Of a stretch of DNA of 13,401 nucleotides, positions 1-13,401 are shown in pieces; the first letter of the stretch is position 1; each line of letters begins with the position of its first letter. A program made the translations under genes and the position numbers. This stretch comes from a virus (Duplodnaviria; Heunggongvirae; Uroviricota; Caudoviricetes): positions 1 through 13,401 of the IMG/VR virus record IMGVR_UViG_2737471844_000004; one strand, written 5' to 3'. A model generated the notes under the pieces. It was not told the origin of the DNA and did no database searches. It saw only the letters and a program-made list of their open reading frames with translations.

Positions 1-51
1 ATGTGTTGTAAAATCAGTCGAAGCCTAACAAGTGTGAATGACCTTTTAACC

Positions 52-762
52 ATGACGCAAGTGTTCAATGTTTACTGTGATGAGTCCTGCCATTTAGAAA
101 ATGATGGTCAAAAAGCAATGGTGCTCGGGGCTGTTTGGTGTCCTCTCAATAAGAGGTTTGGTATTGCTAATCGAATACGAGAGATAAAGCTCAAACATGG
201 CTTGGACCCACGTTTTGAAGTCAAATGGACTAAGGTTGGGGCTTCTAAAATTGAGTTTTATAAAGATTTGGTGGATTACTTCTTTGATGATGATGATCTT
301 CATTTCCGGGGATTGGTTATTCCTGACAAAACTCAGCTAAAGCATGATGATTTCGATCAAAGTCATGATGACTGGTACTATAAAATGTATTTTGTCATGT
401 TGAAAACTATTTTTGAGCCAGGAAGTCAATATAGAGTCTTTATTGATATAAAAGATACTCTTGGTCATGAGAAAATACTCAAGTTACATGATGTATTATG
501 TAACAATGCATATGATTTCTCTAGGAAAACAATTTCTAATATTAAGAGAATTAATTCTCATGAAGCTGAGCAATTGCAACTTGCTGATTTATTAATAGGT
601 GCCCTTAGTTATATGCATAGAGGTTTAAATGAAAGTAAGCCAAAACTTTTATTAATTAACAGGATCAGAGAAAGGAGCGGCTATAATCTAACCCAAAATA
701 CTTTGCTTCGAGAGTTAAAGTTTAATCTAATGATCTGGCAATCTAATGGGGGATGTCGATGA
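52..762 (+). CDS. DUF3800-like protein (family call from motif memory); start could instead be ATG at 1
   Basis: ORF 1..762; N-terminal MTQVFNVYCDES and later QLQLADLLIGALSY match the two motifs I recall for DUF3800 (N-terminal DES, C-terminal QxADxL). AT-rich. Stop TGA 760-762 overlaps next start (ATGA). Confidence 0.65.
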   Translation: MTQVFNVYCDESCHLENDGQKAMVLGAVWCPLNKRFGIANRIREIKLKHGLDPRFEVKWTKVGASKIEFYKDLVDYFFDDDDLHFRGLVIPDKTQLKHDDFDQSHDDWYYKMYFVMLKTIFEPGSQYRVFIDIKDTLGHEKILKLHDVLCNNAYDFSRKTISNIKRINSHEAEQLQLADLLIGALSYMHRGLNESKPKLLLINRIRERSGYNLTQNTLLRELKFNLMIWQSNGGCR

Positions 763-1244
763 GTCCGGTTTGGCTACCCGAGCAAATTTTATTAGAACAC
801 TATCAAGGTGAGTGGGAGGCCTACTTTGATAGTGTTTATCAAGCATTCCACCGCGATTTCGTTTTATCTAAACCAGTTTTTCGTGGCGTTCGATTAGGAT
901 TGAAACGTCATCCAGAATATGAAGGTAAATCAGCCACATTCTGGCATATGATTAGCACTGGAAATGTAGAAAGTGAGAGAGTGCCGGATATTCGGCGCTG
1001 CGAAAGAATTAGTTGGCCTAAGCCTGTTATAGATAATAGTACCGATACCTGTTTGAAAGTCTGGGCTGAGCCCAAAGGTAAAAATAGACGTATCCACATT
1101 TGGTTTGAGGATGAGGGATATCTGGTGGTTTTAGATGATAGAGGCGATTTTATGCTTCCATGGACAGCGTTTTATATTGAACATAACCATCAACGAAAGA
1201 AATACAATAAGAGATGGGAAAGACACAATCATAACGGTATTTGA
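759..1244 (+). CDS. Hypothetical protein, translationally coupled partner of the DUF3800-like gene
   Basis: ORF 753..1244; ATG at 759 has GGGGGA 6 nt upstream and overlaps the upstream stop. No recognisable motif. AT-rich like its partner. Confidence 0.6.
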   Translation: MSPVWLPEQILLEHYQGEWEAYFDSVYQAFHRDFVLSKPVFRGVRLGLKRHPEYEGKSATFWHMISTGNVESERVPDIRRCERISWPKPVIDNSTDTCLKVWAEPKGKNRRIHIWFEDEGYLVVLDDRGDFMLPWTAFYIEHNHQRKKYNKRWERHNHNGI

Positions 1245-3974: not shown

Positions 3975-4148
3975 TCAGGCCGGACGTTCTACGGGATAAA
4001 GCGCCCGCTGCATTAAACGCCGGGCGACCTCATGAATGCTCGGAGCAATCCCCAGCGGAGAATTGCGGCGTTCCTCGTCCTGGATGCGCTGTAATGCTTC
4101 AATCTGATCACGAGCGAGTAAAACGGGTTTCACGCTGGCTTTTCTCAT
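3975..4148 (-). CDS. Small putative DNA-binding protein (RHH-like pattern), first gene of the module
   Basis: ORF 3975..4172; preferred start MRKASVK at 4148 with AGGAGA 7 nt upstream. Pattern beta-strand KPVLLARDQ followed by two helices. Confidence 0.5.
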   Translation of the reverse strand: MRKASVKPVLLARDQIEALQRIQDEERRNSPLGIAPSIHEVARRLMQRALYPVERPA

Positions 4149-4270
4149 AGTCATATCTCCTGAACAAAACAATGATTATGATTGCACAAACTGAAATGAC
4201 GATCTACATCATTGCAATTTATGAAACAATAACGCATGATGATCGCGTTCTTCCCATTGACTTCAATCAC

Positions 4271-4313
4271 CTGCAAAAATAAAACCCGCAACACTTCTGG
4301 CTGCGGGTTTTTT
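4271..4313. terminator. Bidirectional rho-independent terminator
   Basis: AACCCGCA-(11 nt loop)-TGCGGGTT at 4283-4309, flanked by an A-run (4271-4282) on one side and a T-run (4308-4313) on the other, so it has a U-tract on either strand. Confidence 0.7.
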
Positions 4314-4321
4314 ACTGGCAC

Positions 4322-4345
4322 AAAAAAGCCGGGAAAAATCCCGGC
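4322..4345 (-). terminator. Intrinsic terminator directly after the PerC-like gene
   Basis: GCCGGG-aaaaat-CCCGGC at 4328-4345, preceded on the plus strand by A6 (4322-4327), which gives a U-run on the minus-strand transcript. Sits 6 nt past the stop at 4351. Confidence 0.65.
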
Positions 4346-4350
4346 CTCCG

Positions 4351-4638
4351 TCACTGACTGCAATTTTTCGATCCAGGGTATTTCCTGAATGCCTTACCAT
4401 TGGGCTGATGTAATCCCATCCCGGCATGTGCCCGGCTGATGGTTTCGCGCATCTCCCCGAAATTATCCTGCCGTGCTGGTGGGCGTGCTGCCTTGCGGAT
4501 ACATTCCGCGCGACGTTTTGCCGCCTGTTCCCGTGCCTTGTCATCATTCGCCAGCATGATGACCTCAGCCCACCGCGCCGCCGCTCTCCGGTACAGACCA
4601 CGCGCTTCCAGTGCTTCCGCTTTGCTGTCGTGAATCAT
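4351..4638 (-). CDS. PerC-family-like transcriptional regulator
   Basis: ORF 4351..4638. N-terminus MIHDSKAEALEARGLYRRAAARWAEV and KRRAECIRKA match the PerC/Pch signature as I recall it. Start ATG overlaps the FinO-like stop (ATGA). Confidence 0.6.
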   Translation of the reverse strand: MIHDSKAEALEARGLYRRAAARWAEVIMLANDDKAREQAAKRRAECIRKAARPPARQDNFGEMRETISRAHAGMGLHQPNGKAFRKYPGSKNCSQ

Positions 4639-5231
4639 GCGCCTGTTTTCTCCTTTGCTGCCCGGCGCTGACGTTTGCGCTTCTCATTCAGCGCCACCAG
4701 CCGCGTTTCTGCGTCCTGTTGTTCCTGTGGTGTCACCTCGCCGCACGGCTGGCCTTTCAGGTCGTAGCGTACCCCACCAGCCATTAAGGCGCGGTAATAG
4801 CGCGGACACTGCGCATAAGATGCCAGCGTCGCACGTAATGCCCCTGGCCCGAATGCCAGCCCCCTGACGGCGAGATCCTGCATCAGGTCGTCGAATATCC
4901 CCACCTTAAGCGGCTTCGGTGCTTCCCGGCTGAATAATTCAGGCCACAACTCAGTGAGGCGGTTAATGCGCCTGCGGTTTTTTCGCTGCCGTTTGGTCAT
5001 ATGCCGCCACGGTGTCGCCCCTGTGGGCTTCTGCTGCGCTTTCTGGTTACCGGGCATCACTTTATGCGCCGATGTGGTTTTATCCTGCTGCTGCTGCTGC
5101 TGCTGCTGCTGCGCCGCCTGCGTCGTTTTCTGCGGCGTGCCGTAAATGCCTTTCGGTTTTCTGTTAATAGTCAGCTTAGTCATGCTTTGCCCCATCGTTT
5201 TTACTGATTGTTTCATATCCGGTACTTTCAT
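4635..5231 (-). CDS. FinO/ProQ-domain RNA-binding protein with N-terminal poly-Q tract; start codon uncertain
   Basis: ORF 4635..5231. LWPELFSREAPKPLKVGIFDDLMQDL ... YDLKGQPCGEVTPQEQQDAETRL parallels the ProQ N-terminal/FinO domain. Q9 run encoded by the repeat at 5086-5112. No clear SD at the first ATG; internal ATGs are possible starts. Confidence 0.7.
   Translation of the reverse strand: MKVPDMKQSVKTMGQSMTKLTINRKPKGIYGTPQKTTQAAQQQQQQQQQDKTTSAHKVMPGNQKAQQKPTGATPWRHMTKRQRKNRRRINRLTELWPELFSREAPKPLKVGIFDDLMQDLAVRGLAFGPGALRATLASYAQCPRYYRALMAGGVRYDLKGQPCGEVTPQEQQDAETRLVALNEKRKRQRRAAKEKTGA
5086..5112. repeat. Perfect (CTG)9 / (CAG)9 trinucleotide repeat, in frame within the FinO-like CDS
   Basis: Plus strand reads CTG nine times from 5086 to 5112. 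Confidence 0.95.
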
Positions 5232-5236
5232 CTTCT

Positions 5237-5522
5237 GGGTAGAGGGGTAGACGGCGGGTAGATAACAAAAAATAGTCCTCTACCCACTTAACTTAATGAA
5301 AAAAAACAACTTTCACACATTAGGTAGAGGGGTAGACCGTAAAATAGAAAAGTTTGAAACTTACTTTCTTACAATCTGTGTTTTCCTCTCGCTGTATAAA
5401 AAGTTTTTTGAGCGGGGATGTTGTCTACCCCTCTACCCACTTCTCTGAAAGCCTTGTGCTACGAGGGATTCAGCGGGTAGACAATAAAAAATCACCATCT
5501 ACCCTGTGTCTACCCATCTACC
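5237..5522. repeat. Iteron cluster flanking AT-rich spacers; candidate replication origin
   Basis: About 12 copies of GGTAGA(N)/TCTACC in both orientations (5237-5264, 5277-5287, 5321-5338, 5423-5440, 5473-5483, 5497-5522), including the inverted pair AGGTAGAGGGGTAGAC / GTCTACCCCTCTACCC around an AT-rich core. Immediately 3' of the primase-helicase gene. Confidence 0.65.
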
Positions 5523-5539
5523 TGTTACGGGTATTACTC

Positions 5540-7288
5540 TTATAAAAATTCCTCGGTTCTCTCCGTTTGTATAACGTTGGTTTGTATTCGTCCTTTAAAA
5601 CCTCTTGTCAGGTATTCAGCCCCATATTCTCTTGCTGCTGACTTCATGGCCTTACCAAAATCACCGACACTTAATATTTCTTCTTCCCCCATATACTCCA
5701 TAAAGGCGAGATATAGTCTGTACAGGCTTGTACGCGGATTAAGATCAGTTAATCTCTTACCGCCTCCCATCATCATCCCATGCGGTTCATCAAGAAATGC
5801 AAGCGCCGCACATAACCCAATGACAGGATCAGTTTCCTGTTTTATTTTCAGAGCTTCGGCACCGTCGCGCTGCTCCAACAATAATTCCCGTGCTTTTTCT
5901 GGATCGGAAAAGTTAGCCAGTAATCGACGAATAATGACAGGTATTTCCGCCGCTATCTTTTGCGGTAACTCTTTATCCTTTTCGGTCTCCCTTACAATAT
6001 TATCGAACCGAAAAATTACACGTCGACGCGCAACGCCTCCGGCCCGTTCGGTGAATGTCATCGGCACGTTATTTGTTGCCAGCACGACGGACCTGATAAT
6101 TGTTGTGAAACGCTTTTCATATTTCGGGTTAATTTCAACTGGATCTCCACCCGTTATTTTTTTGATGCCGGATCCTTCACCTGTATATTTCGGCTGGTCT
6201 GCCAGGACAATAAGACGACTTCCGACAACCTGCGCACGCCCGCCAGCATCATCAAGCGATGTCATTTCAGCGCTTACCGTGTTCTGTTTCCCTGCCAGAA
6301 GGGTGGCTATGTGCGTGATTGTGCTCTTGCCGCTCCCGCCTTCCCCTGTGGCCTCAATAAACATCTGCCAGTCGTACCGGTTCGCCATAATCATGTACAG
6401 CGCGGCGCATATACGCATCATCTTTCGCGGGTCTTTTCCTGCGGCGTGATCAAGCCATTTATGAAAGTTTGGCGCGTTGTCGCGGATGTTCTCCCCTGGT
6501 ACTGGTGGCGTGTACTCAATGCCGTTATGCGTGGTGATCCAGTTATCCGGCGAGTGCGGGGAAAATTCGCCAGTTTTCATGTCAAGCACGCCATTAGAGA
6601 ACGGCAATAAATCACCTGACGGTTCCCCCATTGGCCTGGCCATAACTTTTAAAGCATCCACAGCATTACTTATTGCTCTCCGACTAAACGATGTTCCGTT
6701 TTCTTCGTAAATAGCCACCATTTCACGACTAAGATCCAGTGTGCTTACCGGAACCCAAAAATCATCGCGCCAGACGTGGACAACCTCACTCTCCTGATTC
6801 ATTGCTACATCCTGAAATCGTTCAGCTAAAAGTTTTGCCCTTTGGCTGTCCGCCATTCTGGAAAGAGATATTTTGTGTTTTTTCTCGGTCCTTCCTGACA
6901 GAATTTCTCCGCGCTCAGCCTGTTCGCGGATCCGTTGCAGGTAGTCGCGCCAGTTCTCCGGTTCCTGGTCGGTGATGCCTTTGTATAATTTCGCCTCCTG
7001 TACGCCAGCCAGCGCCAGCTTTTCAGCGATAGTATTGATCTGGATTGGCTCTATCTCCCCCGCGATATAGACACGCGCAAAACGGCGTTTCTCGTCAATA
7101 ATGCGGATATTCGCCAGGTCTGCCAGTTGCTTTGGCCCCAGGTAAACAGGAGGCACGTTATCGCCGTGTTTTCGTCCTTCACTTTCAATCCAGTGTTGAG
7201 CATGGGCGTAAGCATCCGTCCCGGCAAAAATGATTACCTCAGTGAATTTATCCTTCGGCTGATATTTTAGACTCGGTGCGTTTTTCAC
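5540..7288 (-). CDS. Primase / SF3 (D5-like) helicase replication initiator, P4 alpha-like
   Basis: ORF 5540..7288, 582 aa. Walker A GEGGSGKST, Walker B-like LIVLAD, motif C VLATNN. GTG start overlaps upstream stop (GTGA) with GGGAGG 6 nt upstream. Confidence 0.85.
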   Translation of the reverse strand: MKNAPSLKYQPKDKFTEVIIFAGTDAYAHAQHWIESEGRKHGDNVPPVYLGPKQLADLANIRIIDEKRRFARVYIAGEIEPIQINTIAEKLALAGVQEAKLYKGITDQEPENWRDYLQRIREQAERGEILSGRTEKKHKISLSRMADSQRAKLLAERFQDVAMNQESEVVHVWRDDFWVPVSTLDLSREMVAIYEENGTSFSRRAISNAVDALKVMARPMGEPSGDLLPFSNGVLDMKTGEFSPHSPDNWITTHNGIEYTPPVPGENIRDNAPNFHKWLDHAAGKDPRKMMRICAALYMIMANRYDWQMFIEATGEGGSGKSTITHIATLLAGKQNTVSAEMTSLDDAGGRAQVVGSRLIVLADQPKYTGEGSGIKKITGGDPVEINPKYEKRFTTIIRSVVLATNNVPMTFTERAGGVARRRVIFRFDNIVRETEKDKELPQKIAAEIPVIIRRLLANFSDPEKARELLLEQRDGAEALKIKQETDPVIGLCAALAFLDEPHGMMMGGGKRLTDLNPRTSLYRLYLAFMEYMGEEEILSVGDFGKAMKSAAREYGAEYLTRGFKGRIQTNVIQTERTEEFL

Positions 7289-7575
7289 TTCTTACCTCCC
7301 GCAACCAACATTGCCCGGATTTTTTTTATATTCGTGGCTGCACGTCTCGCCACTGCCTGTTGTTTGTTTTCCACCAGAATAAAATCACGATCAAACTGAC
7401 GGCGCGGCATTACGCAGTCATATTCGTAAGCCTCACGGCGGTAGGTGATATTGCCTGGCGTAACGTGACGAATAACCACCCGTCCCCCGCGTCTGGTGTC
7501 CCGGAAAATATCACCGGGGCGGATTTCAGGCCGAGAGAGGCCGCTGGCAGTAAAGCCAGAATTTTTCTTTTTCAT
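7285..7575 (-). CDS. Hypothetical basic protein (96 aa)
   Basis: ORF 7285..7575; ATG 4 nt after the upstream stop; coupled to the primase gene. Confidence 0.6.
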   Translation of the reverse strand: MKKKNSGFTASGLSRPEIRPGDIFRDTRRGGRVVIRHVTPGNITYRREAYEYDCVMPRRQFDRDFILVENKQQAVARRAATNIKKIRAMLVAGGKK

Positions 7576-12147: not shown

Positions 12148-13401
12148 TTATTTATTAGATTGCGTGATGTCAGAACATATCATGTTTTCTAAATTCACCA
12201 GCAAATCAGTCCACTGTGCCAGCGCCGCTTTGCGCTCATCAAAATATTGATGGCGGTTATAAATGCCCTCTACGCCTTTTATGCGGTGGTTAAGGCATCG
12301 TTCAGCAACGATCGGGTCAACTCCCAATGCTGCTAAATGTGTTCGTGCTGTTCGCCGGAAGTCGTGAATTGTAAAGTTGGGGACGTTCGGCATTTCTGCT
12401 CTGACTTTTGCCAATGCAACAGGAAGGGTGCTTTCCTGGATGTGAGGGATCATTCTGTGCTGCATTTTTCTGGCAGGTAATACCCATGCGCTATTGCATG
12501 AAAATGTGTGCAATTCTCGCAACCATTCTATGGTCGCTGGTGGTAATGGTATGTCGATAGCATCGCCATTTTTAGTTCGTTGTTCTGGTAGATGCCAAAT
12601 CGCGCCATCTAAGTCGAATTCATCCCACCTGGCGGCGCATAACTCCATTTTTCTGACACACAATGCTAAGAGCAACTTAAAGGTTAATTCGTTCTGGCGG
12701 CTGAATCCTTTGGCTTTACGCATGGCCTGAAAAAATTGGATTAATTCGTCACGGTTCAGCCAGCGATCACGAGATAATTCTTTCCCACCAGCATCTGATA
12801 CTTCAAAAGCTGAGCAGGGGTTAACCTCCAAAGCAAGGCGTTTAATACCGTAGTCAAATATTCGACGTGTCCACCGAAGAACGTCAGTAGCAATTGTTGG
12901 AGCGCCTCTATCAACAATGCTTTTAAGCATGGCATCAATATGGCGTGGTTTTACATCTTCAACCTTCATGTGGCCTATGGCAGGATTTATGTCTTTATCA
13001 ATGCGCCTGCGGAGAATATCTGGGTGTTTCCATCGGGGAAGTATTTGCCGTGCAAAGTATTCGGCGGCAAGTTCAGAAACATGCAGCGCGTTTTTTTCAG
13101 CTTCTATTTTTGCCAGTGCTTCGGCTTTACGCTGCTGTTTTTCTGCGGCTACGTCATATCCCAAAGCAACTCGTGCGGAAAGTTCTTTTGCCAGTTCCCT
13201 GGCTTTTGATAACGATAATTCAGAATATGAACCAATAAGCATGGCACGAGATTTTCCTGCCAGTTTATATCGAAACCGCCATGTCGGGGATCTATCCACC
13301 TCTCTATACCGGAGATATAGCCCACCACCATCAGCACGACCTTCGAAATGTTCTCCGGCTTTTATCCATGCGCGGATCTGCATATCTGTGAGTTTTGGCA
13401 T
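12148..13401 (-). CDS. int: P4-type tyrosine integrase (site-specific recombinase)
   Basis: ORF 12148..13401, 417 aa. N-terminus MPKLTDMQIRAWIKAGEH...DGGGLYLRY and C-terminal HDFRRTARTHLAALG...ERCLNH...IYNRHQY carry the R...HxxR...Y catalytic signature. ATG sits exactly at the window edge. Confidence 0.95.
   Translation of the reverse strand: MPKLTDMQIRAWIKAGEHFEGRADGGGLYLRYREVDRSPTWRFRYKLAGKSRAMLIGSYSELSLSKARELAKELSARVALGYDVAAEKQQRKAEALAKIEAEKNALHVSELAAEYFARQILPRWKHPDILRRRIDKDINPAIGHMKVEDVKPRHIDAMLKSIVDRGAPTIATDVLRWTRRIFDYGIKRLALEVNPCSAFEVSDAGGKELSRDRWLNRDELIQFFQAMRKAKGFSRQNELTFKLLLALCVRKMELCAARWDEFDLDGAIWHLPEQRTKNGDAIDIPLPPATIEWLRELHTFSCNSAWVLPARKMQHRMIPHIQESTLPVALAKVRAEMPNVPNFTIHDFRRTARTHLAALGVDPIVAERCLNHRIKGVEGIYNRHQYFDERKAALAQWTDLLVNLENMICSDITQSNK

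What the first reader, a model, noticed from the sequence alone, without database searches (positions are those of the whole stretch)
4351..4638. PerC-like regulator carried by the island, coupled to the FinO-like gene
PerC/Pch-type proteins activate virulence regulons such as LEE via ler in pathogenic E. coli. A PerC-like gene overlapping the FinO-like gene and followed by two terminators looks like a regulatory cargo module that could cross-talk with host transcription.
Basis: partly seen in the sequence, partly recalled or inferred. Interest (0 to 1): 0.45.

Follow-up and report, generated by a model that had tools for sequence, protein, structure and literature searches.

The report
PerC-family regulator in a phage satellite
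The gene is a real, already-annotated PerC-family small regulator in the backbone of a 13-kb E. coli phage satellite, and it is ordinary for such islands: it is unlikely to be a LEE activator and it is not the island's cargo.

Summary
Observation confirmed. The ORF at 4351-4638 (minus strand, 95 aa) matches Pfam PerC over its full length (E 2e-32). Its ATG overlaps the stop of a ProQ/FinO-domain gene (4635-5231) by 4 bp (ATGA). Two tandem intrinsic terminators follow it.

The identical protein is already annotated in RefSeq as a 'PerC family transcriptional regulator'. [quoted passage not shown]

The window is a whole PICI-type satellite. The gene is not in the accessory slot, which holds a PDC-M04 candidate defence pair at 1-1244. 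It lies in a conserved backbone slot: primase, iteron ori, (SSB), (ProQ), PerC, terminator, packaging genes.

It is only 43-51% identical to every tested member. EPEC PerC and PchABC activate LEE, Sakai PchE has little effect, and EcCIMP1_025 represses LEE1. A LEE-activator role is therefore not supported.

The predicted fold is a TPR-like helical N-domain with no helix-turn-helix, and it gives weak ANR-family hits. The most likely mechanism is modulation of H-NS-type silencing complexes, with pleiotropic effects on host genes.

ProQ-PerC linkage is frequent (19 of 21 loci) but not obligatory. Low interest.

The parts
4351..4638 (-). PerC-family gene, 95 aa. Predicted N-terminal three-helix domain (residues about 5-50), a fourth helix (61-74) and a disordered tail.
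   Evidence: Pfam PF06069 E 2.2e-32, full length. Conserved residues. AF2 model with pLDDT about 90 over residues 1-50. 100% identical to RefSeq WP_000581049.1 in strain JNU.
4635..5231 (-). ProQ/FinO-domain gene. The longest ORF is 198 aa; the true start is probably 5183-5195, by comparison with homologues. It has an N-terminal basic and poly-Q region, a FinO domain at residues about 84-190, and a basic C-terminal tail.
   Evidence: PF04352 E 9e-24. ProQ 5NB9 E 6e-12, FinO 1DVO E 4e-10, with the conserved R/Y/R positions aligned. Homologue N-termini begin MTTLTI.../MGQSMTKL....
4635..4638 (-). ATGA stop/start overlap between the ProQ-like and PerC-like genes (translational coupling).
   Evidence: Sequence. 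The same -4 junction is present in 19 of 21 loci that carry the ProQ-like gene.
4650..4655 (-). AAGGAG Shine-Dalgarno-like motif, 11 nt upstream of the PerC ATG and inside the ProQ-like coding sequence.
   Evidence: Read from the sequence.
4321..4346 (-). Terminator 1: GCCGGGA-UUUU-UCCCGGC hairpin followed by UUUUUU, beginning 5 nt after the PerC stop codon.
   Evidence: RNA fold. Analogous single terminators follow PerC in Sakai Sp7, L030 and L003.
4271..4311 (-). Terminator 2: a 12-bp stem with an A-rich 5' flank and a U-rich tail. By eye it could also terminate plus-strand transcripts.
   Evidence: Terminator scan and fold.
5237..5515 (.). Replication-origin-like iteron field between the primase stop and the ProQ-like start. 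The promoter of the ProQ-PerC operon presumably lies here (not mapped).
   Evidence: 10 GGGTAGA copies, all in this interval, against 0.79 expected. Repeat families. In O157 the pchE transcript starts in the equivalent region downstream of the primase gene (PMC7369912).
5540..7288 (-). P4-type primase/helicase (D5_N, DUF5906): the replication module upstream of the ori.
   Evidence: Pfam and NCBIfam.
3975..4172 (-). First gene of the next transcription unit (57-65 aa, no family hit), with a sigma-70-like promoter match at 4202-4175. Homologues lie downstream of PerC in other satellites.
   Evidence: Promoter scan. Homologous small ORFs downstream of PerC in L015 and L020.

Best explanation
The gene encodes a PerC-family protein (the family of PerC, Pch and, more distantly, ANR proteins): a small, all-helical regulator with no classical DNA-binding fold. 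It is a backbone gene of a PICI-type phage satellite.

It is the last gene of a short operon that starts in or next to the iteron ori. It is translated by coupling to the upstream ProQ/FinO-like RNA-binding protein. The operon is closed by two intrinsic terminators before the packaging genes.

By analogy with Pch proteins, and more remotely with ANR proteins, the protein most likely acts on H-NS/StpA/Hha-type nucleoprotein complexes or their partner regulators at AT-rich DNA. This would shift expression of silenced host genes (the curli, flagella and LEE type of targets seen for relatives) and perhaps of AT-rich parts of the island itself.

Shown here: family membership, operon anatomy, the conserved slot and purifying selection. 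Inferred: the H-NS-directed mechanism and the targets. It is not expected to be a dedicated LEE/ler activator.
For: Family membership.

Island type and position. The window carries integrase, an AlpA-type HTH protein, AntA, Icd-like, an RgdR-like DUF4222 protein, primase, ori iterons, ProQ, PerC, terminators, DUF2213 and TerS-like genes, then candidate defence cargo.

The same slot is used in Sakai Sp7/EcCIEDL933, cf-PICIs, Nu1/Rpp-type PICIs, E. albertii, Enterobacter, Kluyvera and Shimwellia. The ProQ-PerC DNA block occurs with three different replication modules.

Operon: the ATGA overlap, terminators after PerC in several lineages, and 5'RACE in O157 showing pchE on a polycistronic mRNA with the upstream ORFs (PMC7369912).

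Host effects of relatives: PMC6265319, PMC7369912, PMC11773190.

Selection: dN/dS 0.24-0.53.
Against: No experiment exists for this allele. It is only 43-51% identical to every tested member, and those members differ in the direction of their effect.

The ANR link is weak for this protein (14.4 bits against a cut-off of 32). hhalign of the PerC alignment against Rnr gave probability 0.3. Pairwise identity to Rnr is not significant by shuffling.

No promoter was found in the ori region by the consensus scan. The host phenotypes of PchE come mainly from plasmid over-expression.
Confidence: 0.55

Rival explanations
1. One reading: a PerC/PchABC-like activator of virulence regulons (LEE1/ler), carried as regulatory cargo.
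For: Same Pfam family as EPEC PerC and PchABC. The N-terminal motif residues are shared. Some PICI-encoded PerC homologues are said to activate LEE (PMC6092414).
Against: 43-44% identity to EPEC PerC and to the PchABC-type protein. The closer tested relatives have little effect on LEE (PchE: PMC6265319, citing Iyoda 2004 and Porter 2005) or repress LEE1 (EcCIMP1_025: PMC11773190). It lacks the C-terminal extension of the 104-aa group-1 Pch. It lies in the backbone slot, not the accessory end.
Confidence: 0.1
2. An ANR-type anti-activator: the N-terminal three-helix domain binds AraC/XylS-family activators and H-NS/Ler directly and mainly represses, as proposed for EcCIMP1_025.
For: ANR model hits in one register for all PerC proteins tested. 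Family-conserved residues align with Rnr in that register: A7, E11, G14, Y16, A19, W23, R36, R42 and C46. A phage ANR protein and 60-aa phage proteins superpose on the N-domain, with TM-score 0.68-0.75 relative to the target. EcCIMP1_025 represses LEE1 and scores 31.1 bits on the ANR model.
Against: This protein scores 14.4 bits, below the 32-bit cut-off. hhalign probability is 0.3. Foldseek E-values are not significant. Unlike ANR proteins it has a conserved 45-residue C-terminal half. EPEC PerC and PchABC give similarly weak ANR hits yet activate.
Confidence: 0.2
3. A satellite life-cycle regulator: PerC, with or without the ProQ-like protein, controls the island's own packaging operon, its replication, or its interplay with the helper phage. 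Host effects would be side effects.
For: The slot between the replication and packaging modules is conserved across PICI and cf-PICI lineages and genera. Terminators separate it from a promoter-bearing downstream unit. The ProQ-like gene abuts the ori, and plasmid FinO-family proteins (FopA, PcnR) control replication through antisense RNAs (PMC9977716, PMC8053102).
Against: AlpA is the established master inducer of Gram-negative PICIs. pchE in O157 is expressed without induction and falls on SOS induction. EcCIMP1 carries its PerC gene at the far end of the island. No mutant data on PerC in any PICI were found in the papers searched.
Confidence: 0.15

Closest known systems
PchE (ECs1588) of E. 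coli O157:H7 Sakai, in Sp7 / OI-51, the cf-PICI EcCIEDL933
   Same: PerC family, about 90 aa, 51% identical. Same slot in a satellite, after the primase and ori and before the packaging genes, and followed by a terminator. On a polycistronic mRNA with the upstream genes (PMC7369912).
   Different: Preceded by SSB, not by a ProQ/FinO gene. The island makes its own capsids. Identity is too low to transfer the csgD/flagella phenotypes. The 54-aa protein that NCBI also names 'PchE' (P0106, 91% identical over residues 1-54) is a 1-bp-deletion frameshift allele of the window-type gene.
EcCIMP1_025 (PerC-like gene of the PICI EcCIMP1, E. coli MP1)
   Same: PerC-family gene in an E. coli PICI. 46% identical over 91 residues. 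A near-identical variant of the window island (strain JNU) uses the same tRNA-Thr/proA attachment site as EcCIMP1.
   Different: It lies at the integrase-distal end of its island, with no ProQ or SSB upstream. It is shown to silence LEE1 in C. rodentium (PMC11773190). It scores much higher on the ANR model (31.1 against 14.4 bits).
EPEC PerC (pMAR7 perABC) and EHEC PchA/B/C
   Same: Same Pfam family, with conserved N-terminal motif LYRRAAxRW, R36, R43 and C46. Pch acts by relieving H-NS silencing (PMC4764244).
   Different: 43-44% identity. These genes are encoded on the EAF plasmid after perA/perB, or in lambdoid prophages after the lysis genes. They are proven LEE1 activators. PchABC has a longer C-terminus.
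ANR family (Aar, Rnr; NCBIfam NF033650)
   Same: Small helical proteins of mobile elements. The PerC N-domain aligns in one register with the ANR signature residues. ANR proteins bind H-NS and Ler.
   Different: Below the curated cut-off. ANR proteins are 55-77 aa and lack the PerC C-terminal half. Homology is suggestive, not established.
FinO / FopA / ProQ RNA chaperones (for the upstream partner gene)
   Same: A FinO domain with the conserved RNA-binding positions aligned. Mobile-element encoded. Known ligands are terminator hairpins with U tails.
   Different: An N-terminal poly-Q and basic region. Satellite-borne, next to an ori, and coupled to a PerC gene. No RNA ligand is known.

Membership tests
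PerC family (Pfam PF06069) | Profile HMM score above the gathering cut-off over the full domain | tested here: met
   111.6 bits against 22.6, residues 1-89 on model positions 1-89 of 90.
PerC family (Pfam PF06069) | Conserved residues of the family (D4, A7, L10, E11, G14, RRAA 17-20, R22, W23, R36, R43, C46) and about 90 aa in length | tested here: met
   All are present in a 12-sequence alignment that includes EPEC PerC, PchABC-type and EcCIMP1_025, and in a 76-sequence alignment.
PerC family (Pfam PF06069) | Transcriptional activation of LEE1/ler, the activity that named the family | not testable with these tools
   Literature only. The closest tested relatives have little effect (PchE) or repress (EcCIMP1_025).
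Group 1 Pch (PchA/B/C) | Near-identity to PchA/B/C, 104 aa with a C-terminal extension, and encoded in a lambdoid prophage | tested here: not met
   43% identity to the 104-aa prophage copy (L007). The window protein is 95 aa and lies in a PICI backbone.
PchE (group 3, ECs1588) | Orthologue-level identity to ECs1588 | tested here: not met
   51% identity over 90 aa. The genomic slot is shared.
ANR family (NCBIfam NF033650) | HMM score of at least 32 bits | tested here: not met
   14.4 bits, E 0.024, residues 6-52. Rnr itself scores 56.9 bits.
ANR family (NCBIfam NF033650) | A three-helix protein of about 55-77 aa that binds AraC-type regulators and H-NS | tested here: inconclusive
   The N-domain is predicted as three helices and superposes on a phage ANR protein (TM-score 0.71 relative to the target, E not significant). 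There is an extra C-terminal half. Binding is not testable here.
Gram-negative PICI (host element) | Integrase at one end, an AlpA-type regulator, a primase/rep gene followed by an iteron ori, about 10-15 kb, and no tail or lysis genes | tested here: met
   [not shown]
Gram-negative PICI (host element) | Induction, replication and packaging dependent on a helper phage | not testable with these tools
ProQ/FinO family (partner gene) | FinO-domain HMM above the cut-off, with conserved RNA-binding positions | tested here: met
   PF04352 84 bits against 27. The alignment to ProQ 5NB9 and FinO 1DVO keeps the LR..L, Y and R.D positions; assigning them to ProQ R58, Y70 and R80 is from my own knowledge.

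The most novel reading that the evidence does not exclude
The ProQ/FinO-PerC pair is a conserved two-gene regulatory module of the satellite backbone, not just two neighbouring genes. The FinO-like protein would bind the terminator-type 3' end of the operon mRNA, or an ori-proximal or antisense RNA. The PerC-like protein would counter H-NS silencing. Together they would set the island's replication and packaging expression and reprogramme the host. PerC and ANR proteins would then form one superfamily of H-NS-directed small regulators spread by phages and satellites.
Probability: 0.12. Interest if true: 0.55.

Novelty: already known. Interest (0 to 1): 0.2.

Why it matters
It matters little as a discovery. 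The identical protein is already named in RefSeq, and PerC-family genes in E. coli PICIs are documented.

The useful points are corrective:
- The family name should not be read as 'LEE activator'. Tested members at similar distance activate, repress or have little effect.
- The gene sits in a conserved backbone slot of PICIs and cf-PICIs rather than among the cargo. This raises an untested question: what do PerC-type proteins, and the often-coupled FinO-like protein, do for the satellite itself?
- The weak but consistent PerC-ANR similarity offers one mechanistic frame, protein-level action on H-NS complexes, that could reconcile the opposite phenotypes.

Tried and rejected
- PDB sequence search with the PerC protein: no hit at E up to 1.
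- Rfam on the whole window: nothing near any gathering score, only weak terminator-like hits at 4278-4361. No known sRNA explains the twin terminators.
- Consensus promoter scan: no sigma-70-like site in the ori region upstream of the ProQ-like gene.
- Aligning the primase-to-next-gene intergenic regions of four islands, to transfer the O157 transcription start site: they are not alignable, because each island has its own iterons.
- hhalign of the PerC alignment against Rnr: probability 0.3. The shuffle test of gapless identity to Rnr was not significant. I therefore do not claim ANR membership.
- Foldseek against viral structures: no hit at E 0.001 or better. The afdb50 library was not available.
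- Porter et al. 2005 (PMC543544) is not held, so statements about PchD and PchE on LEE rest on later papers that cite it.
- Calling the protein a PchE orthologue was rejected. True Sakai PchE is only 51% identical, and the 91% match is to a frameshifted allele that merely carries the PchE name.
- 'Obligate ProQ-PerC pair' was rejected. PerC genes 64-67% identical to this one follow SSB directly with no ProQ gene. Two ProQ-like genes are followed by a different small gene.
- PADLOC gives no defence-system hit for the PerC-like or ProQ-like protein.

Full report
OBSERVATION. The minus-strand ORF 4351..4638 (ATG start, 95 aa) is a full-length PerC-family protein. It matches Pfam PF06069 at E 2.2e-32, 111.6 bits against a cut-off of 22.6, covering model positions 1-89 of 90, and PHROG 994 at E 8e-36. 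It keeps every residue that is invariant in an alignment with EPEC PerC, a PchABC-type protein, EcCIMP1_025 and others. It evolves under purifying selection, with dN/dS of 0.24-0.53 against homologues 51-92% identical. Other reading frames across the region have no meaningful family hit.

The upstream ORF 4635..5231 is a ProQ/FinO-domain protein. It matches PF04352 at E 9e-24, the ProQ N-terminal domain 5NB9 at E 6e-12 and FinO 1DVO at E 4e-10. Its TGA overlaps the PerC ATG as ATGA (4635-4638), and an AAGGAG lies at 4650-4655.

Five nucleotides after the PerC stop come two hairpin-plus-U-run terminators, at about 4321-4346 and 4271-4311. The pair folds at -41.8 kcal/mol with z = -4.7.

Reading the minus strand, the gene order is:
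- integrase (12148-13401) and a 260-aa protein;
- an AlpA-type HTH protein and an AntA antirepressor;
- an Icd-like region and small ORFs;
- a DUF4222 protein, 48% identical to RgdR ECs1581;
- a P4-type primase (5540-7288);
- an iteron field, with all 10 GGGTAGA copies in 5237-5515 against 0.79 expected;
- ProQ-like, PerC-like and the two terminators;
- a promoter-like site and a 65-aa gene, a 195-aa protein, DUF2213, a TerS-like HTH protein and a 59-aa protein.

On the opposite strand at the far end lies an AT-rich pair, a DUF3800 protein plus a 163-aa protein. It matches the PADLOC candidate defence system PDC-M04 at E 8e-98 and 9e-74. This is the anatomy of a Gram-negative phage-inducible chromosomal island (PMC6092414). 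The accessory slot is the PDC-M04 end, not the ProQ-PerC block.

ALREADY KNOWN. RefSeq annotates the same pair as 'ProQ/FINO family protein | PerC family transcriptional regulator'. The JNU protein WP_000581049.1 is 100% identical to the window protein. A 1.4-kb query around the pair finds 321 of 5426 complete E. coli genomes, and 38 of them cover at least 80% of it. PerC-family regulators are named as frequent PICI genes in PMC6092414 and PMC11773190. PerC and ProQ are listed, separately, as PICI accessory genes in PMC13612085.

PLACEMENT IN THE FAMILY. Identity to characterised members is uniformly modest:
- Sakai PchE (ECs1588): 51%.
- EcCIMP1_025: 46%.
- EPEC PerC: 44%, and a 104-aa PchABC-type prophage copy: 43%.

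The 54-aa protein that NCBI names PchE (P0106) is 91% identical over residues 1-54. It is a 1-bp-deletion frameshift allele of the window-type gene, not the Sakai PchE.

The tested members behave differently from one another. PerC and PchABC activate LEE1. PchD and PchE have little effect on LEE. Over-expressed PchE represses csgD and curli and induces flagella (PMC6265319, PMC7369912). EcCIMP1_025 silences LEE1 (PMC11773190). The family name therefore predicts neither the target nor the direction of the effect for this allele.

CONSERVED SLOT AND THE ProQ COUPLING. In satellites from E. coli, E. albertii, E. ruysiae, Enterobacter, Kluyvera and Shimwellia, the PerC gene lies on the same strand just after the replication module.
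- In some islands it is 9-15 bp after an SSB gene: L011-14, L021, L026-29 and Sakai Sp7.
- In others it overlaps a ProQ-like gene by 4 bp: the window, L001, L003-5, L009, L010, L024, L030-34, L036-40 and L043.

These islands include capsid-forming PICIs and Nu1/Rpp-type PICIs, and they carry unrelated primases or helicases and unrelated iterons.

Of 21 loci holding the ProQ-like gene, 19 have PerC at the -4 junction. Many of these loci are close relatives, so they are not independent counts. Two cf-PICI loci have a different 82-aa gene at that position. Conversely, PerC genes 64-67% identical to this one lack ProQ.

The pair is therefore frequent but not obligatory. ATGA-type overlaps are also the normal junction in this island, for example 7285-7288.

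A terminator after PerC recurs in Sakai Sp7, L030 and L003, but not in all lineages. In O157, 5'RACE places pchE on a polycistronic mRNA that starts downstream of the primase gene. That mRNA is expressed without induction and falls on SOS induction.

The ProQ-PerC block is also the most GC-rich part of the window, at 58-61% against 32-54% elsewhere.

Pch is reported to lack homology to DNA-binding proteins and to activate LEE1 purely by relieving H-NS/StpA/Hha silencing (PMC4764244).

All five PerC-family proteins I scanned give hits in one register to the NCBIfam ANR model over residues about 6-52:
- EcCIMP1_025: E 1.6e-7, 31.1 bits against a cut-off of 32.
- EPEC PerC: E 0.0017.
- Sakai PchE: E 0.0021.
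- The window protein: E 0.024.
- PchABC-type: E 0.046.

A profile search of 1.84 billion representatives finds only 304 clusters. Of 24 short hits (about 55-90 aa) that match only the N-domain, 15 also match the ANR model at E 1e-3 or better. In that register the family-conserved PerC residues align with identical residues of Rnr. ANR proteins bind H-NS, Ler and AraC-type activators (PMC10148876, PMC4983702).

Against this, hhalign against Rnr alone gives probability 0.3, the pairwise identity is not significant by shuffling, and the Foldseek hits to phage ANR-like proteins are not significant.

My best reading is a small protein-interaction regulator that perturbs H-NS-type silencing complexes, with pleiotropic and context-dependent effects on host genes and possibly on AT-rich parts of the island. 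Confidence is about 0.55. The anatomy is shown. The mechanism is inferred.

THE PARTNER. The FinO domain is intact and flanked by basic regions. FinO-family proteins bind terminator hairpins with U tails (PMC9674577, PMC9977716). Terminator 2 has the A-rich 5' flank and U-rich 3' tail of such ligands, and the gene abuts the ori. Binding to its own 3' end, or to a replication-control RNA, is possible but is pure inference. Rfam finds no known RNA here.

VERDICT. This is a correct observation of an ordinary, already-annotated gene. The 'cargo' and LEE-activator parts are not supported. The only mildly new points are the conserved backbone slot, the frequent ProQ coupling and the PerC-ANR resemblance, and all three need experiments.

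Noticed in passing
window 1-762 (+) and 753-1244 (+): A DUF3800 protein (253 aa in the longest ORF, which starts at the window edge; 236 aa in RefSeq) and an overlapping 163-aa protein match both components of the PADLOC candidate defence system PDC-M04 (E 8e-98 and 9e-74). The pair is AT-rich (33-41% GC), on the opposite strand, at the integrase-distal end. This is the island's real accessory cargo.
   Followed up: partly
window 5237-5515: Ten GGGTAGA iterons in both orientations (0.79 expected) flank an AT-rich core between the primase stop and the ProQ-like start. This is a PICI-type replication origin. Other islands have different iterons at the same place.
   Followed up: yes
window 7285-7575 (-): The DUF4222 protein is 48% identical to RgdR (ECs1581), the O157 satellite-encoded regulator of type III secretion. 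The RGD motif of Sakai RgdR reads PGD here. A CGD variant from strain ED1a was reported not to activate type III secretion (PMC3378721).
   Followed up: partly
L003:10001-10165 (also L004, L005), compared with window 4351-4638: The 54-aa 'transcriptional regulator PchE' of NCBI (P0106, seen on at least 47 contigs) is a 1-bp-deletion frameshift allele of the 95-aa window-type gene. True Sakai PchE (ECs1588, 90 aa) is a different lineage, 51% identical.
   Followed up: yes
window 4401-5200: The ProQ-PerC block has 58-61% GC against 32-54% in the rest of the island. It is also found joined to three different replication modules, as if it moves as a cassette.
   Followed up: partly
[not shown]
   Followed up: no
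L003:17294-17590, L004:15835-16131, L030:9051-9353: Some related islands carry a second, divergent PerC-family gene (98-100 aa, 38% identical to the window protein) at the accessory end, in addition to the backbone copy.
   Followed up: no
window 4271-4311: By eye, terminator 2 could also terminate plus-strand transcripts (hairpin followed by TTTTTT on the plus strand), so a short antisense or divergent RNA ending here is conceivable. The scan did not call it on the plus strand, and no good plus-strand promoter was seen.
   Followed up: partly
L008 (NZ_CP148430.1, 12,152-bp circular 'plasmid'): A record deposited as a small non-mobilizable plasmid carries an integrase, a TOPRIM/DUF927 primase and a PerC-family gene. 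It looks like an excised, circular EcCIMP1-like PICI rather than a plasmid.
   Followed up: no
L035:1631-1864 (E. coli E2348/69): The ANR gene rnr lies next to DUF3164 and DUF2786 genes and an AAA ATPase, which from my own knowledge looks like the early region of a Mu-like prophage. ANR genes, like PerC genes, are thus phage-borne.
   Followed up: no
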